Source of the DNA: an uncultured Verrucomicrobiota bacterium
GTDB taxonomy: Bacteria; Verrucomicrobiota; Kiritimatiellia; CAIQIC01; Lenti-01
Length of the DNA stretch: 64,000 nt
Direction: 5' to 3'
Assembly (NCBI GenBank): GCA_964436715.1
Contig: CAYTEK010000002.1
Location: forward strand, 4,282 to 68,281
Part shown: positions 20,491 through 63,660 of the stretch, piece after piece
Position numbering within the stretch: the stretch's first letter is position 1
Layout: each line of letters starts with the position of its first letter
The notes under the pieces: model-generated
What the model was told of the DNA's origin: nothing
Seen by the model: the letters and a program-made list of their open reading frames with translations, nothing else
The model's database searches: none
Position numbers and translations under genes: made by a program

Positions 20491-21639
20491 TTGACGCCGC
20501 GCCCCGCGGAGTTCAAAAGACCCGCCATGGTCTCCCTCGTGCCATTCTGCCGACAAGCGTTTCGTCGCTTGCACGGCTTGGCGCCAACCGCCGAAACGCC
20601 GCCGCTGTCGCCCGCGGACCGCGAAGTCCTCGCGGCCCAAGCGCGCCGCCATCGGCTGACCGGCCTGCTGCAAGCGGGCCTGTCGGCGGAAGCCGGCTTC
20701 GCGATGCCGACCGCCGCTTTCGGACAAGCCCAGCGCGCCGCGCGCTTCGCGCAGGAGGCCGAACGCCTGTTTGCGCTCCTGGCTCCGCGGCTCCGGCGCC
20801 TGGCGCTGCTGAAAGGCCCCGCGTTGGCCGCGCAGGCCTGGCCCCAGCTTGGTCTGCGCAGCTGCGACGATCTCGATTTTCTCTGCGACCCCGGCGATTT
20901 TGCGGCGCTCGTGGCCGGACTCGCCGCCGCCGGCTATGCGCCCGAAACCGACCATCCGCGCCATCTGGCCCATTTGTGGCACTACGGCTGGGGCGCGGCG
21001 TTCCGGCATCCCGACGGCTTTCTGGTGGAAGCGAACCGGCGCTTCTTTCCGCCGCAATATCCGTGGCCCGGCCGGTGCAACGGCCGCTGGAAAACGGCCT
21101 TCGCGCCCGTGCGGCTGGAAGAAGCCGAAGTCCGCGCGCCCACGCCGGCGCTGCACCTCTTGCTGAGTTGCCTGCACGCCGTCTGGCACGGCTGGGCGCG
21201 CCTGGCCTGGCTGGTCGACGTCGCCGGACTCCTCGTGCGGCATCCGGCGATCTTCCCGCAGGCGCTGGCGCTGGCCCGGCGCAGTTCCTTCGCGGAACAA
21301 GCGTTGATCGCCGGCTGCGGCGTGGCCGATGCGCTTTTCGGACCAAATCTTGCCGCGCCGCCGTTGCCCGCGGCGCCGGCGGCGGCGGTCGCCGAAGCCG
21401 TCGCCTTGCTGGACGGCGCCGCGCGCCCGCTGGGCGGCCGCGAATTGCGCCGCCTGCATGAACGCTTCATGACGCCGGCGGAAATCGCGTTCTATCGCTT
21501 GCGCCGCACGTTCACGCCCGGCGACGGCGATTTCCGTTGGATCGCCCTGCCAATCCCCTTGCGCGGCTTGTATTGGCTCCTGCGCCCCCTGCGCGGTGCG
21601 CTCTACGACACCCATTTCCTCAAGCCGGGCGCGCGATAA
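20491..21639 (+). CDS. Nucleotidyltransferase-family protein (NTP_transf_5/PF14907-like), hypothetical
   Basis: 'CDDLDFLCDPGDFAALVAGLAAAGY' is a minimal NTase-fold motif. Start is uncertain (ATG 20491 or 20527). Confidence 0.5.
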   Translation: MTPRPAEFKRPAMVSLVPFCRQAFRRLHGLAPTAETPPLSPADREVLAAQARRHRLTGLLQAGLSAEAGFAMPTAAFGQAQRAARFAQEAERLFALLAPRLRRLALLKGPALAAQAWPQLGLRSCDDLDFLCDPGDFAALVAGLAAAGYAPETDHPRHLAHLWHYGWGAAFRHPDGFLVEANRRFFPPQYPWPGRCNGRWKTAFAPVRLEEAEVRAPTPALHLLLSCLHAVWHGWARLAWLVDVAGLLVRHPAIFPQALALARRSSFAEQALIAGCGVADALFGPNLAAPPLPAAPAAAVAEAVALLDGAARPLGGRELRRLHERFMTPAEIAFYRLRRTFTPGDGDFRWIALPIPLRGLYWLLRPLRGALYDTHFLKPGAR

Positions 21640-49415: not shown

Positions 49416-51305
49416 TCAGGGAGCTTCCTCGAAGCGGAAGGCCTGGATCAGCTCCACTTCCCCTTCATCGTAGGGGATGCCATCGTCCTTCAGCACGTTC
49501 TGCTGCCACCGATCGGGATGCGTCGCCGACCGGAACGCCTTCTGCTGCACTTGCAGCTGCGTCTTGCCGGCCACGAGGCCGCAGTTGAACCAGCCCACCT
49601 GGCGGGCGGCGAACACGGGCAGCACCTGCGCGAAATCGCTGCCCGTCTGCCGCATCAGCCAATCGGAACAAACGATGGGCCGGCGATAGCGCTGCAACAG
49701 CTCGATCCGCGCCTCGAGGCCTTCGGCGCCTTCGAAGCTGTGGAAGGTGACGAGGTCGGACCGCTCGAGCTTGCGGGCGGCCATCGCGCTGCCGAATTCC
49801 TTCCAGGCGGGCACGGCCAGCGGCTGGGCGGGATCGACGTCGCGGGCCCAGTTGAAGACCTGGTCCAGCAGCGGCAGGCTTTGCTCCCACAGGCCGCCGT
49901 TGCCGGCCGTGTTGTAGAGATCCCAATACAAGACGCGTTCGTCGCGCTTGAACGCGCCCACCACGTCCCGGAGATATTTTTCCAGTTGGGGCCAGGCGGC
50001 GCGATCCTTCACCGCGTCCGGCGCCGGACTGGGCACCCAGCGGGCGTTGTATTCGCCGGCGACCGGTTCGGGCTGCGGGCCGACCTGCGGCCCCTGCCCC
50101 GCCAGATTCAAATCGTCGAACAGCACGGGCACGACGCGCAGGTCGTGCTTCGCGGCCAATTCGAGCAGGCGCTCCACCCGCCGGAGAAAACCGTCCGGAT
50201 CGGCCTGCCAAACGGCATATTGAAGCTGGACGCGAATGGCGGTGTAGCCGACGTCCTGCGCCCAGCCGAGTTCCTGGTCGATCGTGTCGGGATCGAAGGT
50301 GTCGGCCATCCACATTTCGACCGAATTCACCGCGGTGCGCGGAACGTAATTGACGCCTTTGACCGGGCCGAGCTTCTCGTACCAGGCCCAAATGCGCGGC
50401 TCGTCCCAGCGTCCGCCGGGTTCGCCCGCCTGGGCGCGCGGCCTCCGCGCGGGCCGGGTCGCCGCCACGGAAGGCCGAATCGTGGGGCTGGCGTCCGTCA
50501 CCAGCGCGCCGTCGTCCAGCGCGACGAAATCCGACGCCAGGCCCAGATATTCGCCCAAACCCTCCCGGTCGAACGACCGATCGCGGTGCAGGAACGGCTC
50601 CAGATCGGCGAAGAAGGCGTTGCAAAGCTCGAACTGGAACCACGCGGCGTTCGCGGCGTCGTTTTCGGCCTGCGTTTCGACCTGCGGGCCTTCGACGACG
50701 AACCGGATCGCCTCGCCGGATTTCAGTTCGACGCGTTCGCCGCCGCGCGGCGCAACGGAGAGTTCGTAGGCCTCGCTCGCGACGTGCCAGCCTTGGCGGT
50801 CGTCCTGCGCCACGGCAAACGTGCCGCCCTGGGCCGCGATCGCGCCGTCCGCCGTCTCGACGCGGACGTCCAGCGAAGGCGTCGGCGCCCCCGCATGCAC
50901 GCGCAGGCCGCCGCGGAGCAACCGCACGTGGATGCGGCGCACCAAATCGTCCTCGCTCTCCGGCAGCCCGTCGGCCGTGTGGCGCAATTCGTCGATGGCC
51001 AGTTCGGAGTTCGGCGCCACGCAGAGAATCGCGCCCGGCGAGCAGACCAGGCACAGGCGACCGTCCTTGCCCGTGGTCACGCGGACGTTTTCGCCCATGG
51101 CCGCGCCTTCGAACAGATCCCGCAGCTCGGAGCGACCTTCGTGCATGGGCGCGGTGAACACGCGCACCTGCGCCGTCCCGGTCATGGCCGCGACGATGGC
51201 CTCGCCCGCGTTCTCGGCTGCCGCGGCCGACCCAACGCCGAACCCCGCGGCAAACGCGACCGCCACCAGCCGTCCTGCCCGAAAAACGATGCTTGTGTTG
51301 TTCAT
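49416..51305 (-). CDS. Secreted glycoside hydrolase (GH5/cellulase-superfamily TIM barrel) with N-terminal beta-rich domain
   Basis: Signal peptide. 'GVNYVPRTAVNSVEMWMADTFDPDTIDQELGWAQDVGYTAIRVQL' and '...LYWDLYNTAGN' match GH5-type (beta/alpha)8 hydrolases. Confidence 0.6.
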   Translation of the reverse strand: MNNTSIVFRAGRLVAVAFAAGFGVGSAAAAENAGEAIVAAMTGTAQVRVFTAPMHEGRSELRDLFEGAAMGENVRVTTGKDGRLCLVCSPGAILCVAPNSELAIDELRHTADGLPESEDDLVRRIHVRLLRGGLRVHAGAPTPSLDVRVETADGAIAAQGGTFAVAQDDRQGWHVASEAYELSVAPRGGERVELKSGEAIRFVVEGPQVETQAENDAANAAWFQFELCNAFFADLEPFLHRDRSFDREGLGEYLGLASDFVALDDGALVTDASPTIRPSVAATRPARRPRAQAGEPGGRWDEPRIWAWYEKLGPVKGVNYVPRTAVNSVEMWMADTFDPDTIDQELGWAQDVGYTAIRVQLQYAVWQADPDGFLRRVERLLELAAKHDLRVVPVLFDDLNLAGQGPQVGPQPEPVAGEYNARWVPSPAPDAVKDRAAWPQLEKYLRDVVGAFKRDERVLYWDLYNTAGNGGLWEQSLPLLDQVFNWARDVDPAQPLAVPAWKEFGSAMAARKLERSDLVTFHSFEGAEGLEARIELLQRYRRPIVCSDWLMRQTGSDFAQVLPVFAARQVGWFNCGLVAGKTQLQVQQKAFRSATHPDRWQQNVLKDDGIPYDEGEVELIQAFRFEEAP

Positions 51306-51332
51306 GGCCTGCTATACCTTTTCGCTTGGAAC

Positions 51333-51797
51333 ATGTCGTTGCCCGCACCCGAATCCCGCGAAATCGTCGAGGCGCTCCTGCGCCAGCGCACGCGCGTTGC
51401 CTTCCGCGCCCAGGGTCCCAGCATGAATCCGACCATTCGCGACGGAGAGACCGTTTTCGTCCGCCCCGCGGACGCGAACGCCTTCCACATTGGAAGCGTT
51501 GTACTGTATCGAACGTCCGGCCGTTTGGCACTTCACAGAATCGCTTTTAACGATAAACGAACAAAACGGCTGTTTCTGGTCGGAGACGCTGCCGTCGCCG
51601 GCGGCGAATGGATTCCGGCCGCCGACGTGATCGGCCTCGCGGAAGGACTGCGCCGCAACGACGCCGTCCGCCGGCTGGACGCCTTCGGCCGCCGCTTGGC
51701 GGGCCGCCTGCGCTTCGCCTTGCGCCCGCTGCGCCGCGCGCTCTGGAATTTCCGCCAGACGCATCATGCGCAAACTCCGGCCCGCGGGGATTCCTGA
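51333..51797 (+). CDS. S24/S26-type (LexA/signal-peptidase-like) serine peptidase
   Basis: 'RAQGPSMNPTIRDGETVFVRP' nucleophile motif and a downstream Lys. The 3' end overlaps the convergent kinase gene by 34 nt. Confidence 0.5.
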   Translation: MSLPAPESREIVEALLRQRTRVAFRAQGPSMNPTIRDGETVFVRPADANAFHIGSVVLYRTSGRLALHRIAFNDKRTKRLFLVGDAAVAGGEWIPAADVIGLAEGLRRNDAVRRLDAFGRRLAGRLRFALRPLRRALWNFRQTHHAQTPARGDS

Positions 51798-52663
51798 AGT
51801 TCCGCCGCCGCCCGCACCGCGTCCGGCGTTTTCGTGAAATGCAGCCGGGCGACGGCGACCTCGCGCACCAGGCGATCCAGCCCGTCCAGAATTCCCTGCG
51901 ACCACTCTTCCTCGAACCACGGCACCGCCGCCACGTCCAGCAGAGCCAGGCGCGATTGGGCGGCGGTCATCGGTTCCGCGCGATCCTGCGCGTCCTGTTT
52001 CAGGAACGCGATCCCGCCCAGCGGCACTTCCGCCGCTTCGGCGAAGCGTCCCGATCCCGGCCACGGCGTGCCGGCCACCCGCCAAGCGGCGCCGCGGCGG
52101 AACACCGCGACGCGATCGTCGTTGAGAATCCGCCAGCCGGCATCCCGCAGCAACGCCGACATCGTGGATTTGCCCGCGCCGCTGCGGCCCGCGAACACCC
52201 AGCCCATCCCGTCTTTCACGGCCACCGCCGCATGCAGCAAGGCGCCGCCCATCTGCGACAGCAGGCCCCACGTCCAAATCTGGTCCACCGGATAGCGCAA
52301 CGGCGCCTCGCAAACGCCGGCACGCCACGCGGAAGCCGGCAGCGCCAGTTCCGCGCGCGTCAAGTCGCGCGCCACGCGGCCGATCATGCGCCGTTCCTCC
52401 GGCGCCCCCAAGCCGACGTGGACGACCAGATCCGCGCCGTCTTTCCAAGCCGCCCAATGGCGCCCCGCGCGCCAGAGCGGCGCGTCCGCGGGCGGCGCCG
52501 CGGTGCCGCAAACGATCTCCACCGGCAATTCGCGCAGCGGCGCGCCGCCGCCGGTGGAATAAAAAGCCGCATGGGGCGGCGCGCCATAGCGCACCGTCCC
52601 CGCGCACGCGGTCCGCAGCGCAAAGCGCAGCGGCCCGACGTCCAAATGCCCGGCGCCGGTCAC
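51764..52663 (-). CDS. HPr-kinase-related P-loop kinase (HprK C-terminal-domain-like)
   Basis: 'HAAVAVKDGMGWVFAGRSGAGKSTMSALL' is the HprK-type Walker A. The GTG start makes a GTGA overlap with the small ORF stop. Confidence 0.65.
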   Translation of the reverse strand: MTGAGHLDVGPLRFALRTACAGTVRYGAPPHAAFYSTGGGAPLRELPVEIVCGTAAPPADAPLWRAGRHWAAWKDGADLVVHVGLGAPEERRMIGRVARDLTRAELALPASAWRAGVCEAPLRYPVDQIWTWGLLSQMGGALLHAAVAVKDGMGWVFAGRSGAGKSTMSALLRDAGWRILNDDRVAVFRRGAAWRVAGTPWPGSGRFAEAAEVPLGGIAFLKQDAQDRAEPMTAAQSRLALLDVAAVPWFEEEWSQGILDGLDRLVREVAVARLHFTKTPDAVRAAAELQESPRAGVCA

Positions 52664-52845
52664 GAACCTCCCTCGTAGGCCACCACGGGCGGCCCCACGC
52701 AGCGGTAGTCGGCATCCAGCTTGCAGCCTTCGGACAACGTCTCCGCCAACGCCAGATCCACCCGTTGGATTTCCGGCTTTTCGTAGCGGGGGCGCGGGGC
52801 CGGACTCTCGTCGGGGGTGGAAATTCGTTCGCAATCCGGTTTCAT
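52660..52845 (-). CDS. Small ORF (61 aa), candidate precursor or partner peptide of the rSAM/PqqD/kinase cassette
   Basis: Strong RBS GGAGGAACGCC-ATG. The ATG overlaps the rSAM stop (ATGA) and the stop overlaps the kinase GTG (GTGA). Peptide: MKPDCERISTPDESPAPRPRYEKPEIQRVDLALAETLSEGCKLDADYRCVGPPVVAYEGGS. Confidence 0.4.
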   Translation of the reverse strand: MKPDCERISTPDESPAPRPRYEKPEIQRVDLALAETLSEGCKLDADYRCVGPPVVAYEGGS

Positions 52846-53936
52846 GGCGTTCCTCCGTTCCGGCGGCCCAGCGCCGCCGCATATCGCAATTCCGTCGTTT
52901 GCCGCATGTAATCCGACTCCCGTTCTTCGTCGCCCGTTTCCAGGCGGTTGAACGCGGGACAATGGACGCAGGCGCCGCGGCGTTCGCCGAACAGGCTGCC
53001 GTCCGTTTGCGTGCGCGTCCGGCGGCGGATGTCCGCCAAATCGCCGGCCCAGACTTCGCGGAACGGCCGACCGGCGGCGGCGCAGGCATAGGCCGTCGCC
53101 AGCAAACACGGCGTCAGGTTGCCGAACGGGTCGCAATGAAAGGACGTCCGGCCGGCCGCGCAGGCATACAATTGGTCGCCGGCGGGATGCGCGGCGGTTT
53201 TCTCGATCTTCTCGCGCCACATCCGGCGCCGCTCGGGCGTCGCCAGGTCCGCCCGCACCACTTCCTCCGGCGACACGCGCAGCGCCAGCGGCGCGCGCGA
53301 ACCGTCTTCCAGGCACGGAAAAATCGCCGCATCGTGCCGGAAAGTCGCGCCGCTGGCCGCGGCCTGCCGCTCCATTTCGGCGCGCTCGCCGCAATTGCCT
53401 TTCATCAAGACGGTTTTCAGCGCGACGCGCACGCCGGCCGCCTGCAGCCGGCGGATGCCCGCCCAGGCCCGCGCGTGCGAACCCGGCGCGCCGGTGATCG
53501 CGTCGTGGGTGGCCGCCGTCGCGCCGTAGAGGCTGATTTCCACCTTGCGCGGCGCCCATTCGCGGAACAGCCCCGCGATCTCGTCCGTGACGAGCGTCCC
53601 GTTGGTGAAGACGGTCACGACCAGGCCCAATTCGCGGGCCTGGCGATGGATCTCCGCGAAATCCGGCCGCAGCAAAGGTTCGCCGCCGGTGAGCGTGAGA
53701 TAGAGGCACCCCGCCTCGGCCCATTCGGCCAGCGCCGCCCGCACGGCGGCGGTGTCGAGTTCGCGCGGCTGGCGGCGACGTTGCTCCGCCTGGTCGCCCA
53801 GATAGCAGTGGACGCAGCGCAAGTTGCAGCGCCGCGTCAGTTCCAGCGTCGCGGCGATCGGTCGCCGCGCCGCGGCGGCGCGCAGGCGGAACGCTTCGGT
53901 CCAATCCCGGGGCCGGGAGTCGCTGGCGCGGTTCAT
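52842..53936 (-). CDS. Radical SAM enzyme with C-terminal SPASM domain (peptide-modifying maturase type)
   Basis: 'CNLRCVHC' CX3CX2C cluster, 'LTGGEPLL', and the SPASM cysteines 'CAAGRTSFHCDPFGNLTPC...GACVHCPAF'. Confidence 0.85.
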   Translation of the reverse strand: MNRASDSRPRDWTEAFRLRAAAARRPIAATLELTRRCNLRCVHCYLGDQAEQRRRQPRELDTAAVRAALAEWAEAGCLYLTLTGGEPLLRPDFAEIHRQARELGLVVTVFTNGTLVTDEIAGLFREWAPRKVEISLYGATAATHDAITGAPGSHARAWAGIRRLQAAGVRVALKTVLMKGNCGERAEMERQAAASGATFRHDAAIFPCLEDGSRAPLALRVSPEEVVRADLATPERRRMWREKIEKTAAHPAGDQLYACAAGRTSFHCDPFGNLTPCLLATAYACAAAGRPFREVWAGDLADIRRRTRTQTDGSLFGERRGACVHCPAFNRLETGDEERESDYMRQTTELRYAAALGRRNGGTP

Positions 53937-54226
53937 GCGCGCACCTCCTCCAGCAGCCGCTGAACCAGCAATTCGCCGGCGAATTCCCGGCAATCGGCCA
54001 GCGCCGCTTCCGGCGCGACGGCGAATTCGGCCGCCAGCGCCGCCGCCGTGGCGGCCAAGGTGCGGCCACCGGCCAAGGCATTCCAAATGAATTCGCCCGT
54101 CGCGTTGATCGGAAACACGCAGCCTTCCCGGGCGACGGCGCCCGACACCGGCACGAGCAGGCGGTCGGCGCCGATCCGGCGCACCACCACCTTGCCTGCC
54201 ACCTCGAATGTCGCCGCGTCGTTCAT
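53933..54226 (-). CDS. PqqD-family protein (RiPP recognition element/peptide chaperone)
   Basis: A ~97-aa protein, 'AGKVVVRRIGADRLLVPVSGAVAREGCVFPINATGEFIWNAL', with the PqqD fold pattern. ATGA overlap with the rSAM gene. Confidence 0.7.
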   Translation of the reverse strand: MNDAATFEVAGKVVVRRIGADRLLVPVSGAVAREGCVFPINATGEFIWNALAGGRTLAATAAALAAEFAVAPEAALADCREFAGELLVQRLLEEVRA

Positions 54227-54233
54227 TCCCGGT

Positions 54234-57200
54234 TTACTTCTTCTTGGCCTTGACGCCGATGAACACGCGCTCTGCCCACGGGCGGTTCACCCGCGTGCGC
54301 ACGGTTTCCATGACACCGTCGGCGTCCGGTTCCACGCCCAGCGTCTGGACGTCGTCCGGTTCCAGCGCCCATTCCTGCAGGTTTTCCGACACGAACAGCC
54401 GATAATCGACGTCGTTGCGCTGGACGCGCCGCTTCCAGCGCAAAACGAAGCCGGACTCGTCCGCTCCGCTGCCGTCCGCAGCCGACGGCGCGAATCCGAA
54501 CTCCGGCAACTCGGCTTCGACGGGGTTCTCGCCGTCGAGCGCGTAGTCGGCGAAATTCGCCGTCGTCGCGCCGCTGACGGCGGCGTTGGTCAGGTCGGCG
54601 GGCGCGAAGCGATCCCAGCGCCACTGGGCGAAATTGTCGGCGCCGGGCCGTTCGTCCACGTTGTCTGCGATCCGCAGCGCGGGATCGCCCAGCAGGTTGT
54701 AGACGGCGTAGGTGTCGTCGGCCAGCGTCTCCGGAGCCATGCGGCGCCGCGCCAGGAGAATCGCCCGGCCCAGCGTGCCCGCGCCTTCTTCCGTCACGGC
54801 GCGATAGAAGGCCGCGCCCAATTCCGCCGCGAATTCGTTGCGCGAGAGTCCGGCGGGCCCCCAGACCGCGACGGCTCCCCCGCCGGCCTTCCGCAGCAGG
54901 AGTTCGCCCAGGCTGTTCACGCCGGGCGCCTCGTACCGCCCGACCAGGCAGCTCAGCGCCACGACGATCGGCGGCCGATTGGGATTGTTCAGGCCGGCGA
55001 CGTCCGCCGCCTTGAGCAGGTTCAGCTTGCTCCAGTTCGCGACGCCGCCGTGGCCCGTGTAGTGGATGAAGCCCGCGCCGCTGTTGAAATAGGCCAGCAG
55101 CTTGTTGCGCGCGGGCGTGATGGCCGTGGCGTTGAGATCGACGACGTCCGCCAGCGGATGCTTGGCGTCGGCCAACGCGGCGAGGCGCTCGTTGGCGGCC
55201 TTGAAGTCGCCCGCGGCGGCGTCGTTGACGTCGTTGGCGAGCACGATCTGGTTCTGCCAGTTCTGGCCGAAGCCGGCTTCGTAGGCCTTGATCTTCGCGA
55301 TCATCGCCGCGAGGTCGTTCGTCGTCAGCGCCGGCAAGCGGCCGATGGCGACGTCCGGCAATTCGTCGCCGCCGACGTCCGCCAGCCGTTCGTCGGCGGC
55401 GAAGAGGCCGTCGCTGCCCGCGAACAGCAGCGGCGGCAGGTGATTCACTTCGTTGCTGAGCGCGTTCAAATAGTCGTAGTGGCCGTTGCCCGCCAGCAGG
55501 ACCATCCACGGCGCCTCCGCCCAGCTGCCCGCGGCGTAGGCCAGCAGCTCCGGAATCGCTTCGGGCGTGCGCAGGCCGCCGGCCAGCAGGTCGCACACGT
55601 CTTCGAACGCCGCCACGCCGACGCGCAGGCCTTGCGCGGCGCGGTAGTCCGTCAGTTCCCGCACCGCGTTGGTGAAGGCGCGCGGCGCCACGACGAGATA
55701 GTCGATCCGGTTCGTTTCGGACAGGAACCACGCCTCCGCCGCCGCGGCGACCGGCGCCAGCGACGGAATGCCGTCTGCTTCGGCCAAGGCGAAGCGCGCG
55801 TCGTCGGCCGTCGCCGCCCAGGCCTTCGCCGGCAGTTCGCCGTTTTCGTCGGCGATCCACGTCGCCCCGCCGTCCCGGTCCAGCGCGACCGCCAGCGGTT
55901 CCGCGTACGCCGCCGCCGAAATCGCGGTGCCGGCCGGCGCCGCGAAATGCGCCGTGCCGGGGCTCGCAACGAGCGTCCGGTCGTAGGTCGCCGTGAAGCC
56001 GTCCACGACGAAGTAGTTCAGGTTGGTGGGCTCCCGGCAGCTCACCGCCAGCACGTTCGTCCCGTCGAACGCGACGCCCGCGGGCACGTCCAGCTCGGCC
56101 GCGAACGTTTCCTGGCCTTCGAATTCGGCCGTGCCCACCGGCACGCCGTTCAGGGCGAACGCCACGAGATGGTCCGGGTTCCGCGCCGCGACCTGCAGCC
56201 AGCCGATCAGGTCCACCGCCAGCGTCAGCGCGCCGCCGCCGTTGCCGGTCAGGACGAACGGAAATTCCGCCTGGTTCGCAGCCGCGTTGGTCGAATTCAT
56301 CACGAACTTCCAATAGTAGAAGTCGTCCGGTTTCGCCGTCACGGCGGTGTTGCCCGGATAGCGGTCCTCCTCGAAACGGATGGACGTCGCGAAGACGGCG
56401 GCGCCGCCGCCCGCGCCCGGGGCGCGCCGCGGCATGGCCAGTCCGCGGCCTTCGTAGATCAGGTAGGCGTTGTCGCGCGCGTACCAGTTGGCCGCCGGCC
56501 CGCCGTGGAAGACCAGCCGGTCGCGCGCCGCGTCGAAGAGCGTCGGCACCAGCCGGCCGGCGCCGAACACGCACAGCGCGTTCGACGCCGCCAGGGCGCG
56601 GATCTCGTCCGCCGGCCGGCCCATGCCGGCCGCGACGTCCGCCAGCGCCACGCCGTAGAGGCCTTCTGCGCCCACGGTCGTCTTCAGGACGGACGAAGGC
56701 CCGCGGTCTTCCTCCGTGCCCAGCCAGAGCGAAGCCGCCGCGTTCTTCGGCGCCGGCCGCGGCGCGCCGAACGTCGCCGCATGGACGCCCAGATCCAGGC
56801 GCGTGCCCGACAGTTCCAGTTCTTCGAGGCGATACGTGCCCGTGCCGCGCGCGCAGGCGGCCGGATCCTTCTGCCGATACGTCGCGCCCGTTTCGTTGAA
56901 CGCGGCCGGCACCGGCTGTTCGTTCAGCAACGTCTCCGCGCCGGTTTCCGGATCGATCCGGTAGACGAAGAAGCCCGCCGTGTTCCACTCCGAACTCGTG
57001 CGCCACACCACCTGGCCGCCGGTTTCCGTCCACTCGCCCCAGACCTCGGCGACTTCCGCGCGGGTGGAATTCAGGCTGGCGAAACCGAAATCCACCGTCC
57101 GATTGGTCGTGCCGGCCGACACGGCGAACGGCGCCGTTTCGAAGTGGCCGGCCGTCGCGCCGTTGGTCGCATCGCTGTCCTGGGCGTCGTCGCCGCCCGC

Positions 57201-60200
57201 ATTGGCCGTCGTCGCAACGACATTCGACGAAATGTCCGTCATGTCGAAGCGCACCCGGTAGGTGCCGCTGGCCAAACCCGCGAACAGGTAGGTGCCCGTG
57301 CTGTCGGTGTTGGTCGTGCGCAGCACGTTGCCGGCGGCGTCGAGCAGCGCCACGGGCAGGTTGGCGATGAAATGGGCCTCGGCCGCGTCCTGGATCCCGT
57401 TGCCGTTGTCGTCGAACCAAACCCGGTCGCCGATGGCCGCCCCGCCCTTCGGCACGATGACCACCGCGCTGCTGTCGTTGCTGGCCACGGGATCGTACAG
57501 GTCGCGGCCCGAGATCGCGGCCACGTTGGTGATCGACATCCCCGAGGTGTTTTCGCGCACGGTGACGTTGATGTAGAGCGTCGTCGCGGCGTTCGCGGCC
57601 AACGTGCCGATCGTCCACGCGCCGGTGCCCGCGTTGTAATTTCCGTTCGAATGGCCGTTGTACTGGAGCTGCGCCGGCAGGACGTCGGCGATCTGCACGC
57701 CCGTCGCCGCGTTCGGCCCGCGGTTGGTCGCCACCAGCACGTATTCGATGATCTGCACCGGATCGGGCGCGTTGGTCGTGACGTACTTGCTCACGCCCAC
57801 GTCGGCGAATTGCACGCAATTCGTGACGGCAGCGTAGATCGCCGGCTGGACCGCGCTGAAGGCCGAAGCCTCATTCAGCAGCTGCGTCGTCGTCGCGGGC
57901 GAACTCACGACCGCCTGCACGGTGACGGTCGCGGATTGGCTGTTGGTCAGCCGCAGATTGACCAGCAGGTTCGGCGGCGGACCCGCCGTCGCCAGCGTGC
58001 CGCCCGCCCACGTCACGCTGCCGGTCACGTAGGCCAAGCCGCTCGGCAGCGGATCGTAGAGCGCGATGCCCGTTTGCGTCACCGTGCCGGTGTTCTGGAC
58101 GACCAGCGTGTAGGTGATCGCGTTGCCGACGGTCAAGCAGGAGCCGGCGCTGGACGTCTTGGTCAGCCGCAGCCCGCGGACGATCGCGGCGAACCCCGCA
58201 TCCCGGCTCGCGTCGGTCGTGCCCGGCGGCAGATAGAACGCCGCCGTGGAGCCGGTGGCCGGCGAAACGTCGCTGTCCGCCGCGTCGCTGCCGCCCTGGT
58301 CTTGCAGGGTGTAGGTGTAGTTGCTGGGCGCGGCGAACTGCAGGAAATAGGTGCCGACCGTCAGGTTCGAGAAGGCATAGGCGCCGGTCGCCGACGACGT
58401 GGTCACGCCCACCGCGTTCGAAGCCGCGTCGTAGAGCGTCACCACCACGCCCGGCATTCCCGTTTCGCTGCCGCCGTCCTGGAGGCCGTCGCCGTCCACG
58501 TCGCGCCAGACGAAATCGCCGATCGCGGAAGACGGCTGGTAGAAGCCCGCGTCGCGGGTCGCGTCGTTCGTTCCGCCGCTCAAGGCAAAGACCGCCGTGC
58601 GCCCCGTGTTGGTGCTGATGTCGCTGTCCAGCGCGTCGTCCCCGCCCTGGTCCTGCGCCGTGGCCAGATAGTTCGACGGCGTGGCGAATTCGAGAAAATA
58701 GGAACCGCTTGGCAGATTCGTGAAGGCGTAGGCGCCGTCCACGCCGGACGTTGCGGTCAGCAGCAGGTTCGAAACGGCGTCGTACAGCCGCACCGTCGCG
58801 CCGGCGATGCCGGGTTCCACGCCGCTTTGCAGGCCGTTGCCGTCCACGTCGTGCCAGACGACGTCCCCCACCCGATTGGCCGCGGAATAATTGGTGGCCG
58901 CGGCGGTCGCCGGCGCGGTCTGGGCATTGGTCGCCGTGGCGACGTTGACGAGCTGGGTGGCCGCCAGCGGCACGCCCAGCGTGCCGCGCACGCGCACGGT
59001 GACGCTCGAACCCGGCGGCAGCGAACAATCGACCAGCAGGTTCGTCAAGTCCGCCGTCAGGTTCGACACGACGACGATCTGCGACGCGTTGCTGTATTGG
59101 GCCACGACGTTGGTGACCACGTCGAAGCCCCGGTTGGTGAACGTGACGAAGTCGAAATTGATCCGATCGCCGGTGTTGAAATTGCCCCCCGCCCTCAGCC
59201 GCAGGCCCATGTTGGCGGACATCCACGTGGTGACGTTGGTGGTGACCGCGACGTAGCCGGCATCGGTGCCGTCGGTCGTCGGCACGGCGAAGACCTGGGT
59301 TTGCGCGGCGAAGTTGTTGGTCGAGAGGTAGACGGTCAGCGTATCGCCGGCGTCCCAGTTCTCGCGGCGGTAGGCCAAGCTCAGGGTCACGTTGGTGTAG
59401 GTGCGGCCGGCCCGCGTCGTGGCCAACTGGTTGCTGCGCGTGACCGAATCGTTGTCGGCATTGGTGTTTTCGAACACCAGGGCGTTGGTGCCGCCGACCG
59501 TGCGAATCAATTCGCTGCCGGTGGTCGCGTTGCCGTTGTCGCCCGTTTCGATCCAGTTGCCGAACCAGTTGGTCGTGCCGTCGTTGTTGTTGTAGGCCGC
59601 CGTGGAAAAAGCGTCGGACACCGTCTCCGCGAAGGCATTGGTCGTCACCGTCTCGAACTGGACGAGCGCGGCGCCGTTGGGCGCGAAATTCACGCCGGCG
59701 GGCAAGGCGTCGGTCAGCTGGATGCCCACCAAGGTGACCGTGCCCGTGTTTTCGATCGTGAGGTAGTAATCGTTGGTGGCGCCGTAGTTCCAGTTCGTGG
59801 CCAGCGCCGAAACCTTGGTCAGCCGCATGCCGATGTTGCCCGAGGCGGCATTCGTCACGCGCGCCGTGATCCACGTCGTCTGCTGGTCGCTCAGCAGCCG
59901 CGCCGCGTTGACGAATTCCGTCGCCGTGATCGGATCGTCCACCGTCGCCGTCAGATAGACGGTCATGTTCGTGCCCGGCGGCAGCGCGTAGTCGTCCAGC
60001 AGGAGCGGCGGATCCGGCAGCGCGTTGGTGGCGTTGGCCGCCGACGCCGCGATGCGCACGTTGTCCAGCCAGACGACGTCGTTCGCGTCGCGCGAGGCGT
60101 TGCCGCCGAACCGGATCACCGTGCCCGTCGAGGCATAGGCCGAAACGTCGAACGTGGCCGTGAAATAGGAACCGTCGTTCGTGGCCCCGCCGATCTGGCC

Positions 60201-63200
60201 CACTTGGACGAACGTGCCGCCGCCGTTGGAGGAGACGTTGACGTTGACGTAGTCGCCCGCCTCGAGGCCCGCGCGGCGATAGCTGAATTGCAGCGTGGCG
60301 CTCGTGTAGCCCGCCAAGTTCGCCGCGCGCTGGAAGAGCGAAGTCGAGACCGTGCGCACCGCGTAGGTCTGGCCCGGGATGGACGTGCCGTCCACCGCCA
60401 TCCGCACGTTGCCGTTGGTGGCCACGGCGTCGTCGTAGACCTCCGTCCAGGGTCCGGCCCAGGCCACGTTGCCGTCGCTGTTGGCGAACGTCTGGAGATC
60501 GAACAGGTCCAGGAACACGTTGGTGTGGGCGAAAGGCCGGTAGAGCCGGGCGGTGCCGTTCGAATACGTCGTGCCGAACGGCAGGACGTCTTCAAGCCGG
60601 ATGCCGGTCTGCGCCACCGTGCCGGTGTTGGAAATCTGGATCGCATAGACCACGCTCGTGCCGGCCGTCAGCAGGTTGGTCGTGCTCGACGTCTTCTGCA
60701 GCCGGACGCCTTCCGTCGCGTTGATCCGGTTGGTCACCGGGTTCGAATCGAGCGGCGTCCGGCTCTGGTCGGCGCGGACCTGCGCCGAATTGACGGTTTG
60801 CGTGGCCACCGGCGGGTTGTCCACCATGACGGCGAACGTCACCGTGGCCGTGCTCCCCGGCAGCAGCGTCACGTCTTCCGCCAGGATCGGCGGCGCCGCG
60901 CCCGCCACCGTCGCGTTGGTTCCGACCAGGACGAACTTCACGTCGTCGAAACGCACGTAATCGGTGGTGCCCAGCGAGGTGGTGCTCAGAAACCGGATCG
61001 CCGTGTTGGTGGACAGGTAGGCGCTGACGTCGACGTTCGTGGAAGCGTAGGCGGTGTCGGTCCCCGCGCCCTGGATCCGCACCAGCAGGTTCGACGACGT
61101 CCAATTGTTGGTGGAAATGAACACGCTGACCGCGTCGTTCGCGTTGTCCAGGGCATCCCGCAAATAGCGGAAGCTCAACGTGGCGCCCCCTTGTCCGGAC
61201 AGGTCGGCGGAACGGGTGGCGGAACGGCTGGCGCCCGCGATTTCCAACACGAAAGCTTCCGCCGAATTGGTCAGGACGTCGGCCAACACCCGGACGTAGC
61301 CGGCCGCCACGCCGTCCGCTTCGCCGCCTTCCGCCCACGGCGTCAGCCAGGGCACCGTGCCGTCGTCGTTCGTGAAAGCCCGTTCGTCGAACCGGTCGTG
61401 CACGACGTTCGTCTGCACGCCGGAAAGCGCGATCCGCGTGCTGTTGGACACGTACGTCAGCCCCAGCGGCAGGTCGTCGTCGATCCGCATCCCCGTGTAG
61501 GTCACCGCGCCCGTGTTGACCACCGTGACGGTGTAGGTGAAATTCGTGCCCGGCTCCAACAGGTTCGTCGTGCTGACCGCCTTGGAGATCGCCAAGCCGC
61601 CGACCATCACGTTCGTGCTGGAACCCGTGGTCCAATTGCCGTTGGTGCCGCCCACTGTCGCGTTGTTGTGGATGTAGCCGGTGAAATCGACGGGCAGGTT
61701 GGTCACGATCTGCGTCACGTAGCGCACCGTGGTGGTCTGCCCCAGTCCGATGGTGCCGAGGTCGCAGCCGCCTTCGTCGAACGGGAACCGCGTCAGTTTC
61801 GGCGGCAAGCTGTCGGGCACGTCGTTGGTGGCGCCGGCGGCGGCCAACATCGCGCTGTTGGTGACGTACGTCGTCAAATCGGTCGGCGGGTTGTCCTCGA
61901 AAATCACGTGGCTGGCCGTGGCGAAACCCACGTTGACCACGTCCACCAGATACTCCAAGGTGTCCCCGGCGTCCGGATAGCCGTTCTCGTTGACGTCGTT
62001 CAGCAAGGTCGCGAATTTCTTCGAAATCACGGTGGGGAACGCCGGAATGGCGTAGCCCATGTCGAGATAGGGATTGCCCGTGCCGGCCAGGGCGGAATCC
62101 TCGCCCCAGGCGCCCAGCAGCACCGTGCCGTCCGTCGTGTAGTAGCGCAGGCCCGATTGATCGTCGTCGCCGGCGTCGAGCAGGCGAATCGTCTGCAGCG
62201 CCGCGACGTTGGTGGCCAAGTCGCACAGATTGCCTTGCGGATCCGTCACGGACCCGGTCGTCGGATCGGCGTCGTAATCCACGTAGAGCGTCGTGTTGCT
62301 GAGCGCCGACACCCACACGGGGTTGCCGTTCGCGCCCGTGCCGGTCGTGCCGTAGCCCGGGCCCCAGCCGACCAGGCCGGCGGTGGACATCATCTTTTCC
62401 GGAACCAGGCTGATGCCCCAGTCGTAGTCCTGGCAGGAGCCGGCCGTGTCGAACAGGCTCACGCCGATGAACGGACTGCCGGCGGCGGCGACGAAACGGG
62501 CGCCGCCGTTCAGCGGCATCTGGAAGGGCGCGCCCACGGCGTTGGCCGCGATGGCGATGCTGCCCGTGCTGGTGGCCGTCGTCACGGTCACCGTGATGGC
62601 CGCGGCGTTGGGATTGAACAGGTACACGTGCGCGGCATAGGTCGTTCCCGCGGAATTGGTCCGCGAACACACCGGCGTGAAATAGTCGGAATCCCACTGG
62701 GTTTCCGGCCACAGTTCGAACCAGCGCGTCTCGTAGTTGGAACCGACGTCGCCCGTGATCAGGCTGCATTGGAACGGCTGGCTGCCGCGCACCGTCGCGC
62801 CGGCCTTCACCCCGCCGTTCACGAAATAGGGCTCGCCTTGGTCCAGATAAATCGTCGTTTCGTAAACGCCGTCGGCGTTGGCGTCGATCTCGACCCGGGT
62901 GAAATCGTAGTCGCCCATGACGTAGAGGGACGACGTGCTGAACATCTCGTTGGTGTTGGCGCCGCTGCCGGTGCCCTCGCCCACCGGCGCGCGATAGACC
63001 ATTCCGTGCGAACCGATGTCCCGCACGCCGATCGCCTCCGCGATCACTTCGCCGGGATCGACCGGGTACATGGCGCGCGTCATGGCGATCGGCTGGGTCA
63101 CGGACACCTTGTCGCGGCCGTCGTATTCGATCGTCACGCTGTTGCGCGTCACGTCGATCTGGTCTTCCAGCCGCACCACCGCGCCGGCATCCAGCACGTC

Positions 63201-63548: not shown

Positions 63549-63660
63549 GCGTTTTCCTGTGGCCGATTCCGAACCGTCGAAACATTCCACGTGCAAAATA
63601 TTGTCAATAAACTAGAACAGATCTGTTTGAATCGTGTTAGGAGCGGCGGAAAGCCGGCAA
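63549..63660 (-). promoter_or_regulatory. AT-rich promoter/leader region of the giant surface-protein gene
   Basis: The window's lowest-GC stretch by eye, 'tcaataaactagaacagatctgtttgaatcgtgtt', lies just upstream of the start. Confidence 0.35.

What the first reader, a model, noticed from the sequence alone, without database searches (positions are those of the whole stretch)
52660..54226. Translationally coupled PqqD -> radical-SAM/SPASM -> 61-aa peptide -> HPr-kinase-like cassette: candidate undescribed peptide-modification system
Four minus-strand genes are chained by 4-nt overlaps: ATGA at 53933-53936, ATGA at 52842-52845, GTGA at 52660-52663. PqqD-family proteins act as RiPP recognition elements for partner rSAM/SPASM maturases, as in PqqD/PqqE and MftB/MftC. 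HPr-kinase homologues are known as peptide kinases that phosphorylate the C-terminal Ser of lasso-peptide precursors, as in paeninodin-type clusters. Here the small ORF ends in ...YEGGS with a C-terminal Ser, and contains Glu/Tyr/Cys residues that are typical rSAM crosslink substrates. No lasso cyclase, B2 protease or exporter is present. So the combination of rSAM, a PqqD-type recognition element (RRE), a kinase and a peptide does not match a characterised RiPP class.
Basis: partly seen in the sequence, partly recalled or inferred. Interest (0 to 1): 0.88.

Follow-up and report, generated by a model that had tools for sequence, protein, structure and literature searches.

The report
Radical-SAM plus kinase peptide-maturation cassette
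A real, strongly conserved five-gene cassette in uncultured Kiritimatiellia probably makes a small modified peptide, by adding a radical-SAM enzyme to the machinery of the recently described phosphorylated peptides of Bacilli, and it sits at the head of a polysaccharide-export locus.

Summary
PqqD (53933-54226), a radical-SAM enzyme (52842-53936), a 61-aa ORF (52660-52845) and an HPr-kinase-like protein (51764-52663) lie on the minus strand, joined by ATGA/ATGA/GTGA overlaps.

The small ORF is a real gene. It has 180 homologue clusters. Its N-terminus varies. The motif YxxPx[IL]..RVxLAxxET-L-S-x-GCK, a second Cys and a terminal Gly-Ser are conserved. Third codon positions are saturated.

The same PqqD-rSAM-peptide-kinase set recurs in all 26 close loci (Kiritimatiellia/Verrucomicrobiota MAGs). 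It also recurs in 7 of 8 distinct architectures sampled from the distant family, including a Desulfatibacillaceae MAG with an unrelated neighbourhood.

Popov et al. [quoted passage not shown] So "matches no characterised class" is only partly true.

The new element is the SkfB/PqqE-like radical-SAM enzyme with a degenerate four-Cys SPASM domain, plus the Cys-containing core.

Proposed pathway: the RRE binds the leader, the rSAM enzyme cross-links Cys, the kinase phosphorylates the C-terminal Ser, and the peptidase cuts after Thr36. The chemistry is inferred, not shown. Verdict: new variant of a known kind.

The parts
53933..54226 (-). PqqD-family RiPP recognition element (97 aa), discrete. It starts 8 nt after the stop of the giant surface-protein gene.
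   Evidence: Pfam PqqD E=2.4e-12. Best NCBIfam hit is lasso_PqqD_Strm at 31 bits, below its cutoff. The only PDB hits are lasso TbiB1 (5v1u, E=0.0086) and LPP LppB (9x8z_B, E=0.14). Present in all 26 close loci (25 with the gene inside the fragment) and in 7 distant loci.
52842..53936 (-). Radical-SAM peptide maturase (364 aa). It has CX3CX2C at C37/C41/C44 and a degenerate SPASM (Twitch-like) C-terminal domain that keeps C259, C277, C323 and C326.
52660..52845 (-). Precursor peptide gene (61 aa): MKPDCERISTPDESPAPRPRYEKPEIQRVDLALAETLSEGCKLDADYRCVGPPVVAYEGGS.
   Evidence: 180 homologue clusters, none with a Pfam or NCBIfam family. Invariant residues are Y21, P24, R28, L31, A32, E35, T36, G40, C41, K42, C49 and P52. 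120 of 121 end in Ser. Third codon positions vary at 44 of 44 sites, against 18 of 44 second positions. In L004/L019 the gene sits upstream of PqqD with the same sequence.
52738..52845 (-). Predicted leader (Met1-Thr36) with the RRE-binding motif Y21-x-x-P24-x-I26 and E35-T36 at the predicted cleavage site.
   Evidence: The register is identical to the LPP leader: Y-16, P-13, V-11, E-2, T-1, with cleavage after T-1 shown experimentally for LppA (PMC13381572). The cleavage site here is inferred.
52663..52737 (-). Predicted core (Leu37-Ser61, 25 aa, 2584.19 Da monoisotopic unmodified): LSEGCKLDADYRCVGPPVVAYEGGS.
   Evidence: GCK, a further Cys and a terminal Gly-Ser are the only core features kept in divergent and distant homologues. 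Mass.
51764..52663 (-). HprK/P-fold P-loop kinase-like protein (299 aa, GTG start), a member of Pfam ScmC. Predicted peptide Ser kinase.
51333..51797 (+). Archaeal/ER-type signal-peptidase-I-like serine peptidase (154 aa) with no predicted membrane anchor. It is convergent with the kinase gene and overlaps its 3' end by 34 nt. Predicted leader peptidase.
   Evidence: Hits TIGR02228 sigpep_I_arch at E=1.6e-8 and Pfam Peptidase_S24 at E=1.4e-6; both searches used the fragment 51393-51797. The start is corrected to the ATG at 51333. The N-terminal helix, GPS30M, H68-R and GD85AA are conserved in the close loci that reach this gene. Compare LppS catalytic residues S29/H68/D93 and F42. Present on the opposite strand in 24 of the 26 close loci (L025 and L026 end before it).
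20569..21639 (+). NTP_transf_5 nucleotidyltransferase-like gene at the far end of the polysaccharide locus. It is a possible sixth, remote component.
   Evidence: PF14907 E=5.5e-33. In distant relatives an NTP_transf_5 gene adjoins the cassette (L036, L037, L038, L040). Similarity to the window protein is only 24-29%. No copy lies within 10 kb of the cassette in any close locus. Linkage here is not demonstrated.

Best explanation
This is a ribosomal peptide maturation cassette. It is a lasso/LPP-type recognition-and-tailoring set (discrete PqqD RRE, HprK-like kinase, signal-peptidase-I-like leader peptidase) in which a radical-SAM enzyme replaces the lasso cyclase.

Proposed order of events:
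1. The 61-aa precursor is bound through its Y21-x-x-P24-x-I26 leader motif by the PqqD protein. Inferred from homology to the TbiB1/LppB complexes.
2. The RRE presents the core to the SkfB/PqqE-like radical-SAM enzyme. That enzyme modifies the GCK...C region, most likely by forming thioether cross-link(s) from Cys41 and/or Cys49. Inferred; the chemistry is untested.
3. The HprK-like kinase phosphorylates a serine, most likely the universally conserved C-terminal Ser61, as the paeninodin-type kinases do. Inferred.
4. The cytoplasmic signal-peptidase-I-like enzyme removes the leader after Glu35-Thr36, as LppS does after E-2/T-1. Inferred.
5. A remote NTP_transf_5 enzyme may decorate the phosphoserine.

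The product is a conserved molecule (a 25-residue core), not a hypervariable toxin. Its genes head a roughly 30-kb exopolysaccharide synthesis and export locus, downstream of a giant C25-domain surface protein.
For: Gene set and overlaps.

The peptide is a real gene under purifying selection, with a variable N-terminus and a conserved leader and core.

Co-occurrence:
- All 26 close loci, from Kiritimatiellia/Verrucomicrobiota MAGs, carry the genes their fragments reach.
- In 7 of 8 distinct distant architectures (kinase 25-36% identical), PqqD, rSAM and a 54-62-aa ORF again flank the ScmC-like gene. One of these is a Desulfatibacillaceae MAG with no polysaccharide or giant-protein context.
- All the distant peptides keep YxxPx[LIVM]...GCK...C...GS*.

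Leader register equals the LPP leader, for which RRE binding and cleavage after T-1 were shown experimentally (PMC13381572).

The RRE's only PDB relatives are TbiB1 and LppB.

The peptidase keeps Ser30/His68/Asp85 and an N-terminal helix like LppS.

The kinase keeps the His-Lys-Asp-Asp motif (PMC9266682).

The rSAM enzyme is closest to the thioether-forming SkfB and belongs structurally with SPASM/Twitch peptide maturases.

Peptides with three Cys go with rSAM enzymes that have seven SPASM Cys. Peptides with two Cys (the window clade and L042) go with rSAM enzymes that have lost three of them.
Against: - No modification has been observed. Every chemical step is inferred from homology.
- All curated NCBIfam hits are far below their cutoffs, so no enzyme is an equivalog of a characterised one.
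- The best NCBIfam hit is MftC, a decarboxylase/cross-linker, not a thioether synthase.
- LPP kinases phosphorylate core Ser3, not a C-terminal Ser. Here Ser38 (core position 2) is present in 108 of 121 homologues, so the site is ambiguous.
- Distant peptides have Val instead of Thr at the -1 position, even where an S24 gene is present (L038). The cleavage site may therefore differ, for example after Gly40.
- The Cys-count correlation may reflect a single evolutionary event.
- No dedicated exporter is present.
- Within the close clade, co-occurrence cannot be separated from inherited synteny.
Confidence: 0.72

Rival explanations
1. The peptide is the precursor of a small redox cofactor or metabolite, in the manner of PQQ or mycofactocin. 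The rSAM enzyme would modify a few C-terminal residues, which are then excised. The kinase and peptidase would be processing steps.
For: The core is unusually conserved for a RiPP. MftC is the best NCBIfam hit at 116 bits and PqqE is among the best PDB hits at 26% identity. The C-terminal ...E-G-G-S is nearly invariant. A discrete PqqD partner is typical of both pathways.
Against: MftC and PqqE scores are far below their cutoffs of 265 and 381 bits. There is no Val-Tyr terminus and no Glu-x3-Tyr motif. None of the other pathway genes (MftD/E/F, PqqB/C) turned up in the Pfam scans of the window. In divergent and distant homologues the core apart from GCK, Cys and GS varies widely, which does not fit a single cofactor structure.
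Confidence: 0.1
2. The system is essentially an LPP-type linear (poly)phosphorylated peptide pathway. The rSAM enzyme performs a non-cross-linking tailoring step, such as epimerisation, C-methylation or dehydrogenation, or is accessory.
Against: Cys41 and a second Cys are invariant across the whole family, and their number tracks the number of SPASM cysteines. The closest sequence relative with a structure is the thioether synthase SkfB. The rSAM gene is retained in 7 of 8 distinct distant architectures, so it is not accessory.
Confidence: 0.15
3. The rSAM enzyme and its neighbours serve another substrate, such as the adjacent giant C25-domain protein, a sulfatase (anSME-like) or the polysaccharide. 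The 61-aa ORF would be a small accessory protein rather than the substrate.
Against: No anSME model is among the 25 best NCBIfam hits shown, and only 4 of the SPASM Cys are present. The Desulfatibacillaceae and L041 cassettes have no giant protein nearby. In L008 and L013 other genes separate the giant protein from the cassette. The small ORF carries a canonical RRE-binding leader motif in register with experimentally studied leaders.
Confidence: 0.04
4. It is a phosphorylated lasso peptide whose cyclase and B2 protease are encoded elsewhere in the genome.
For: The leader fits YxxPxL...T. The predicted core starts with a small residue if cleavage follows Leu37. Asp46 (93%) would lie at core position 9. 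The C-terminal Ser and the HprK-like kinase match paeninodin-type clusters (PMC9266682).
Against: No Asn-synthase-like cyclase or Transglut_core3 protease appears among about 50 window genes scanned, nor in any of the 26 close loci. Some homologues lack an acidic residue at core positions 7-9, for example L026. The rSAM gene occupies the place of the cyclase throughout the family.
Confidence: 0.03

Closest known systems
LPP (linear polyphosphorylated peptide) biosynthetic clusters of Bacillota: LppA/B/K/S/N/D (Popov et al. 2026, Nat Commun 17:6633, PMC13381572)
   Same: - Discrete PqqD-type RRE.
- HprK-like kinase.
- Archaeal-type signal-peptidase-I-like leader peptidase with a Ser/His/Asp triad (S30/H68/D85 here; S29/H68/D93 in LppS).
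- Leader motif Y-16, P-13, hydrophobic -11, E-2, T-1 in the same register.
- Embedded in a polysaccharide biosynthesis locus.
   Different: - A radical-SAM enzyme is an integral part here. The paper mentions none.
- The core is short, Cys-containing and conserved. LPP cores are 35-200-aa precursors with highly variable C-termini.
- No MsbA-type exporter.
- The NTP transferase is 30 kb away instead of adjacent.
- The host is Kiritimatiellia, whereas LPPs are described as restricted to Bacillota.
- LppB similarity is marginal (E=0.14).
Paeninodin / pseudomycoidin-type phosphorylated lasso peptide clusters (PadeK, ThcoK, PsmK, PsmN)
   Same: - Kinase of the HprK family with a His-Lys-Asp-Asp catalytic set.
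- Precursor with a conserved C-terminal Ser.
- [Y/W]xxP leader bound by a discrete B1 RRE.
- An NTP_transf_5-type enzyme is associated in relatives.
   Different: - No macrolactam synthetase (C) and no B2 cysteine protease.
- A radical-SAM enzyme and a serine peptidase take their places.
- An acidic residue at core positions 7-9 is not universal.
SynChlorMet (SCM) cassette of NCBIfam/TIGRFAMs (ScmC TIGR04249, ScmD TIGR04248, ScmE/ScmF TIGR04250/04251) and Pfam ScmC PF27840
   Same: - Combines an HprK-like 'ScmC' protein, a PqqD homologue and radical-SAM/SPASM enzyme(s).
- The window protein's family carries Pfam ScmC.
   Different: - All four NCBIfam models are missed by a wide margin: 36.5 against a cutoff of 125, 23.9 against 100, 80 and 91 against 400 bits.
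- One rSAM gene rather than two.
- SCM has no published experimental characterisation that I could find; a full-text search returned no paper.
SkfB (sporulation killing factor maturase), a Twitch-domain sactionine synthase
   Same: Best solved relative by sequence profile (E=4.5e-26, 26% identity). Radical-SAM core plus a reduced, four-Cys auxiliary-cluster domain. The peptide substrate contains Cys.
   Different: SkfB carries its RRE as a fused N-terminal domain, while here the RRE is a separate protein. The skf operon has no kinase or signal-peptidase-like partner. The NCBIfam SkfB model scores 68 bits against a cutoff of 300.

Membership tests
LPP RiPP family (Popov et al. 2026) | Discrete RRE (PqqD fold) encoded next to the precursor | tested here: met
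   Pfam PqqD E=2.4e-12. LppB (9x8z_B) is one of only two PDB hits, but at E=0.14.
LPP RiPP family (Popov et al. 2026) | Archaeal-type signal-peptidase-I-like leader peptidase with a Ser/His/Asp triad | tested here: met
   TIGR02228 E=1.6e-8 (34.6 bits, below the 51.85 cutoff) and Pfam S24 at 28.4 bits, above the 23.3 cutoff. S30, H68 and D85 are conserved in the close loci that reach the gene. Activity not tested.
LPP RiPP family (Popov et al. 2026) | HprK-like kinase | tested here: met
LPP RiPP family (Popov et al. 2026) | Leader motif YxxPxVLxHQxIxFETxxS with cleavage after T-1 | tested here: inconclusive
   Y, P, hydrophobic -11, E-2 and T-1 are in the same register. The middle of the motif differs (RVDLALA against LxHQxIxF) and Ser follows ET by 2 residues, not 3. 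Cleavage not tested.
LPP RiPP family (Popov et al. 2026) | Adjacent NTP transferase and MsbA-like exporter | tested here: not met
   No MsbA-type gene in the window. The only NTP_transf_5 gene is 30 kb away, and none lies within 10 kb in the close loci.
LPP RiPP family (Popov et al. 2026) | Linear product whose primary modification is phosphorylation, with no cross-linking enzyme | tested here: not met
   A radical-SAM maturase gene is an integral, conserved part of the cassette. The product itself is not testable here.
Lasso peptides (paeninodin type) | Asn-synthetase-like macrolactam synthetase (C) and transglutaminase-like B2 protease | tested here: not met
   No such Pfam families among the window genes scanned or the close loci.
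Lasso peptides (paeninodin type) | Tailoring kinase with His-Lys-Asp-Asp and a precursor ending in Ser | tested here: met
   The motif requirement comes from PMC9266682.
SynChlorMet cassette (NCBIfam equivalogs) | Scores above the curated cutoffs for ScmC, ScmD, ScmE and ScmF | tested here: not met
   36.5 against 125, 23.9 against 100, 80.3 against 400 and 90.7 against 400 bits. None of the 68 distant family members comes near a cutoff either; the best E-value is 4.8e-12.
Pfam ScmC (PF27840) | Match to the Pfam model | tested here: met
   All 120 listed homologues, including P0241 at 97% identity, carry a precomputed PF27840.1 hit. The model is absent from the local Pfam copy, so the window protein itself could not be scored.
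Sactipeptide/ranthipeptide maturases | Radical-SAM core plus SPASM/Twitch auxiliary cluster domain, acting on a Cys-containing core | tested here: met
   CX3CX2C plus C259/C277/C323/C326. SkfB is the best PDB relative. Cys41 and Cys49 are invariant.
Sactipeptide/ranthipeptide maturases | Formation of Cys-S to C-alpha/beta/gamma thioether bonds | not testable with these tools
   Requires mass spectrometry or NMR of the product.
Mycofactocin / PQQ systems | MftC or PqqE equivalog score, and a C-terminal Val-Tyr or Glu-x3-Tyr precursor | tested here: not met
   116 against 265 bits and 79.7 against 381 bits. The peptide ends in GGS.
Anaerobic sulfatase-maturating enzyme | anSME family score and a full seven/eight-Cys SPASM domain | tested here: not met
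   Not among the 25 best NCBIfam hits shown. Only four C-terminal Cys are conserved.

The most novel reading that the evidence does not exclude
The matured peptide is not a free antibiotic. It would be a component or controller of the cell envelope glycan. After cross-linking and C-terminal Ser phosphorylation, the phosphoserine is nucleotidylated or glycosylated by the NTP_transf_5 enzyme, as PsmN does on pseudomycoidin. The peptide then becomes a primer, cap or anchor for the exopolysaccharide made by the roughly 30-kb locus that lies between the cassette and the NTase gene. Alternatively it could be linked to the giant C25-domain surface protein.

The basis is a recurrent association of RRE/HprK-kinase peptide cassettes with polysaccharide loci. 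It appears in Bacilli (LPP and paeninodin), in Kiritimatiellia and Lentisphaerota, and next to WbqC/DegT/GT4 sugar genes in L041.
Probability: 0.12. Interest if true: 0.85.

Novelty: new variant of a known kind. Interest (0 to 1): 0.66.

Why it matters
It defines a large family of peptide-maturation cassettes that has no experimental characterisation I could find. The kinase-like protein alone has about 680 family representatives at E<=1e-30.

The family joins two chemistries that are normally separate: radical-SAM cross-linking and HprK-type serine phosphorylation. It uses the recognition and leader-removal logic just established for LPPs.

It extends that logic from Bacillota to Gram-negative anaerobes: Kiritimatiellia, Lentisphaerota and Desulfobacterota.

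It adds independent cases of an unexplained link between such cassettes and exopolysaccharide or surface-protein loci. This makes the proposed role in capsule or biofilm biology testable.

It also provides a natural pair: rSAM enzymes with seven SPASM Cys paired with three-Cys peptides, and enzymes with four SPASM Cys paired with two-Cys peptides. This pair could be used to study what the second auxiliary cluster does.

Tried and rejected
1. **Lasso reading of the core** (Ser38 as residue 1, Asp46 as the ring acceptor at position 9). Rejected. There is no cyclase or B2 protease, and L026 has no acidic residue at positions 7-9.

2. **Covariation of Thr-1 with the presence of the SpI-like peptidase.** The Desulfatibacillaceae locus has Val and no peptidase. 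Rejected, because L038 has Val and an S24 gene.

3. **Treating the NTP_transf_5 gene as a proven member.** tblastn found no copy within 10 kb of the cassette in any close locus. The metagenome scan with it returned only 7 loci. One was the same strain and one kept the glycosyltransferase neighbour; none linked it to the cassette. I keep it as a possibility only, because distant relatives place such a gene next to the cassette.

4. **Literature searches that found nothing.** These were: 'SynChlorMet'; 'HPr kinase + radical SAM + PqqD + RiPP'; 'Kiritimatiell + radical SAM + RiPP'; 'signal peptidase + RRE + radical SAM + kinase'. 'ScmC' returned only unrelated acronyms. The PF14907 search found one unrelated preprint on phosphonate biosynthesis that holds both PF14907 and 'radical SAM'.

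5. **My first coordinates for the peptidase gene** (51393-51797) started inside the gene. They are corrected to 51333-51797.

6. **Promoter and terminator scan** of 51200-54400. It found nothing above chance.

7. **My first crude GC3 gene call** mis-assigned strands. It was replaced by a codon-model call.

8. **Complex prediction** (RRE + leader + peptidase). Not possible with the single-chain predictor.


Full report
**1. Observation**

The window has 64-73% G+C, so spurious ORFs are frequent.

The sequence shows ATGA at 53936-53933, ATGA at 52845-52842 and GTGA at 52663-52660. Shine-Dalgarno-like GGAGGA and GAGGGAGG lie ahead of the second and third starts.

Family searches identify:
- PqqD (53933-54226; Pfam E=2.4e-12).
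- A radical-SAM enzyme (52842-53936; E=9.5e-26).
- No family for the 61-aa ORF (52660-52845).
- Weak HprK-type hits for the fourth protein (51764-52663).

The kinase assignment is firmer at the family level:
- A profile of 38 homologues matches HprK/P structures 1jb1/2qmh at E=1.7e-6. The match runs across the catalytic His, the P-loop and the Asp-Asp.
- H144, K165, D182 and D183 are invariant, even among relatives of 25-36% identity. These correspond to the His-Lys-Asp-Asp set reported as essential in lasso-peptide kinases (PMC9266682).

**2. The small ORF is a gene**

A profile search found 180 clusters of about 60-aa homologues with no family annotation.

In 121 sequences:
- The first 17 residues vary freely.
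- Invariant residues are Y21, P24, R28, L31, A32, E35, T36, G40, C41, K42, C49 and P52.
- 120 of 121 end in Ser.

Among 16 distinct coding sequences, all 44 third codon positions vary but only 18 second positions do. Invariant residues use 2-5 synonymous codons.

In L004/L019 the gene has moved upstream of PqqD and keeps its sequence. The ORF overlaps its neighbours by only 4 nt, so the conservation is its own.

**3. Co-occurrence**

rSAM homologues of 53-97% identity form more than 120 clusters. The few that carry a name are labelled Kiritimatiellia. A pattern scan of species-representative genomes with the peptide motif returned 21 loci, nearly all labelled Kiritimatiellia or Verrucomicrobiota MAGs (one is an unclassified 'uncultured bacterium').

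In all 26 close loci the order is: giant SdrD_B/Peptidase_C25 protein, PqqD, rSAM, peptide, kinase-like, an S24-type peptidase on the opposite strand, a FecR-domain protein, a beta-barrel, then Wza. Several fragments end before the last genes. This continues into tyrosine kinase, Wzy and Wzm/Wzt.

This could be inherited synteny, so I sampled the distant family. A profile search of 1.84 billion representatives gave 20,978 hits, 677 of them at E<=1e-30. There is a sharp gap after the 15 representatives of the window clade.

Contexts of nine distant members, representing eight distinct architectures:
- PqqD, rSAM and a 54-62-aa ORF lie next to the ScmC-like gene in seven of the eight.
- One of those seven is a Desulfatibacillaceae MAG with unrelated neighbours.
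- One has the rSAM and peptide genes on the other strand.
- The exception is the Lentisphaerota type (L035/L039), which has a transglutaminase-like gene upstream and only about 500 bp of further sequence before the contig end.

All seven distant peptides read YxxPx[LIVM]..[VI].L.A.[DE][EQ][VT][LM]..GCK...C...GS*.

**4. A fifth gene**

Convergent with the kinase gene lies 51333-51797 (+). It hits archaeal-type signal peptidase I (TIGR02228, E=1.6e-8) and Peptidase_S24. I corrected its start after seeing the conserved N-terminus.

The protein has:
- An N-terminal helix (xIIxxLLRQ).
- GPS30M, H68-R and GD85AA, conserved in the close loci that reach the gene.
- No membrane anchor.

Its 3' end overlaps the kinase gene by 34 nt in about half of the loci.

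**5. Comparison with the literature**

Popov et al. 2026 (PMC13381572) describe LPPs in Bacillota. The conserved core genes encode:
[quoted passage not shown] It removes the leader only when the RRE presents it.
- A discrete RRE (LppB, PDB 9x8z).
- An HprK-like kinase (LppK) that polyphosphorylates core Ser3.
- An NTP transferase.
- An MsbA-like pump.

The clusters are embedded in capsular polysaccharide loci. The leader motif is YxxPxVLxHQxIxFETxxS, with Y-16, P-13, V-11 and cleavage after T-1.

The window peptide has Y21, P24, I26, E35 and T36 in exactly that register. The window peptidase has S30, F42 and H68. The window PqqD has only two PDB relatives, lasso TbiB1 and LppB.

The paper mentions no radical-SAM enzyme and calls LPPs restricted to Bacillota. 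So the recognition, phosphorylation and leader-removal parts have an experimentally characterised analogue. The rSAM part does not.

**6. The radical-SAM enzyme**

Invariant cysteines are C37/C41/C44 plus C259, C277, C323 and C326. That is CX17C (with GX4C) followed by CX2C, or four of the seven SPASM cysteines.

Distant homologues also have Cys at window positions 314, 317 and 345, completing a SPASM motif. The window clade and L042 have lost them. In the same comparison, peptides paired with seven-Cys enzymes have three Cys, and those paired with four-Cys enzymes have two. This fits the enzyme acting on Cys, but it may be a single evolutionary event.

The best solved relative by profile is the Twitch thioether synthase SkfB (E=4.5e-26), then PqqE.

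All NCBIfam equivalog scores are far below their cutoffs. That includes MftC (116 against 265), ScmE/F, the GeoRSP rSAM, SkfB and PqqE.

**7. Mechanism proposed**

Shown by sequence and conservation: the gene set, the leader/core layout and the catalytic residues.

Inferred:
- The RRE binds YxxPxI.
- The rSAM enzyme forms thioether(s) from Cys41 and/or Cys49.
- The kinase phosphorylates Ser61. This is the only Ser conserved through the whole family, and it is the site used by paeninodin-type kinases.
- The peptidase cuts after Thr36, releasing a 25-residue core of 2584.19 Da before modification.

Uncertainties:
- Ser38 is an alternative phosphorylation site.
- Cleavage after Gly40 would fit the small -3/-1 rule, and would fit the distant peptides that have Val at -1.

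**8. Setting**

Pfam scans of about 50 window genes show the following:
- 22.6-51.3 kb (minus strand) is one polysaccharide locus. It contains roughly a dozen glycosyltransferases, acetyl- and methyltransferases, Wzy, Wzm/Wzt, a tyrosine kinase, Wza, a beta-barrel and a FecR-domain protein.
- At its far end lies an NTP_transf_5 gene (20569-21639, E=5.5e-33).
- In distant relatives an NTP_transf_5 gene adjoins the cassette (L036, L037, L038, L040). In L036 a Transglut_core3 (B2-like) gene lies nearby. L041 continues into WbqC/DegT/GT4 sugar genes.
- Giant C25-domain proteins adjoin the cassettes in L036, L037, L038 and L040, and probably in L042.

In the window clade the polysaccharide locus therefore appears to lie between cassette components. 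I could not show that the window NTase belongs to the system.

**9. Verdict**

This is a genuine, conserved cassette that I found no experimental study of. It is best described as a lasso/LPP-type pathway in which a radical-SAM enzyme replaces the cyclase.

Database curators have partly seen the kind (Pfam ScmC, the SynChlorMet cassette). Its non-rSAM half was characterised in 2026. I therefore rate it a new variant of a known kind, not categorically new.

Interest is moderately high for three reasons: the size of the family, the combination of chemistries, and the repeated, cross-phylum association with polysaccharide and surface-protein loci.

Noticed in passing
window 22592-51305 (minus strand): One long polysaccharide synthesis and export locus. 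It contains GT2/GT4 glycosyltransferases, hexapeptide acyltransferases, an FkbM methyltransferase, a GT4 (PF00953) initiating transferase, Wzy_C, Wzm/Wzt ABC transporter, a GNVR/AAA_31 tyrosine kinase, Wza, a beta-barrel and a FecR-domain protein with an unassigned roughly 330-aa C-terminal domain.
   Followed up: partly
window 54234-63596 (minus strand): A giant 3120-aa surface protein with SdrD_B, DUF11/CLIPPER and CarboxypepD_reg repeats and a C-terminal Peptidase_C25 (gingipain-like) domain. Its stop lies 8 nt before the PqqD start. Similar giant C25 proteins adjoin distant cassettes (L036, L037, L038, L040), which suggests a link that I did not resolve.
   Followed up: partly
window 51764-51797; close loci: The kinase-like gene and the convergent peptidase gene overlap tail-to-tail by exactly 34 nt in 12 of the 25 loci tabulated (window included) (31, 16 or 10 nt in seven others). 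The peptidase C-terminus ...RQTHHAQTPARGDS is identical in L001 despite 71% overall identity. This points to dual-coding constraint.
   Followed up: no
rSAM positions 314, 317, 345 (window 52900-52997) versus L034, L036-L041: The window clade and L042 have lost three of the seven SPASM cysteines. Their peptides have two Cys instead of three. This may be co-evolution of auxiliary cluster and substrate.
   Followed up: partly
L008 2960-8635; L013 5924-8567: In two close loci, extra genes sit between the giant protein and PqqD. L008 has a second C25-type protein and a roughly 1000-aa sensor kinase on the opposite strand. L013 has a sensor-kinase-like protein plus a LytTR-type response regulator, the regulator type common in peptide quorum sensing.
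   Followed up: no
L035 / L039 (Lentisphaerota-type loci): An ScmC-like gene, a convergent S24-like peptidase and the FecR/barrel/Wza/tyrosine-kinase/Wzy genes are present. Directly upstream is a 226-aa secreted transglutaminase-like protein instead of PqqD/rSAM/peptide. The contigs end about 500 bp further on, so absence is not established.
   Followed up: partly
window 2-20435 (plus strand); L038 9836-13107: A metal-transport region: FeoB C-terminus, two ZnuA-type binding proteins, two ABC-3/ABC_tran sets, an ArsP-type permease and a P-type ATPase. In distant locus L038 the cassette plus NTase is directly followed by Fur/FeoA and FeoB. In the window the NTase side of the polysaccharide locus also faces a FeoB-containing region. 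This may be a remnant of a shared ancestral arrangement.
   Followed up: no
window 51306-51332: Only about 27 bp separate the divergent starts of the peptidase gene (ATG 51333, +) and the FecR-domain gene (ATG 51305, -). No sigma-70-like promoter was detected.
   Followed up: no
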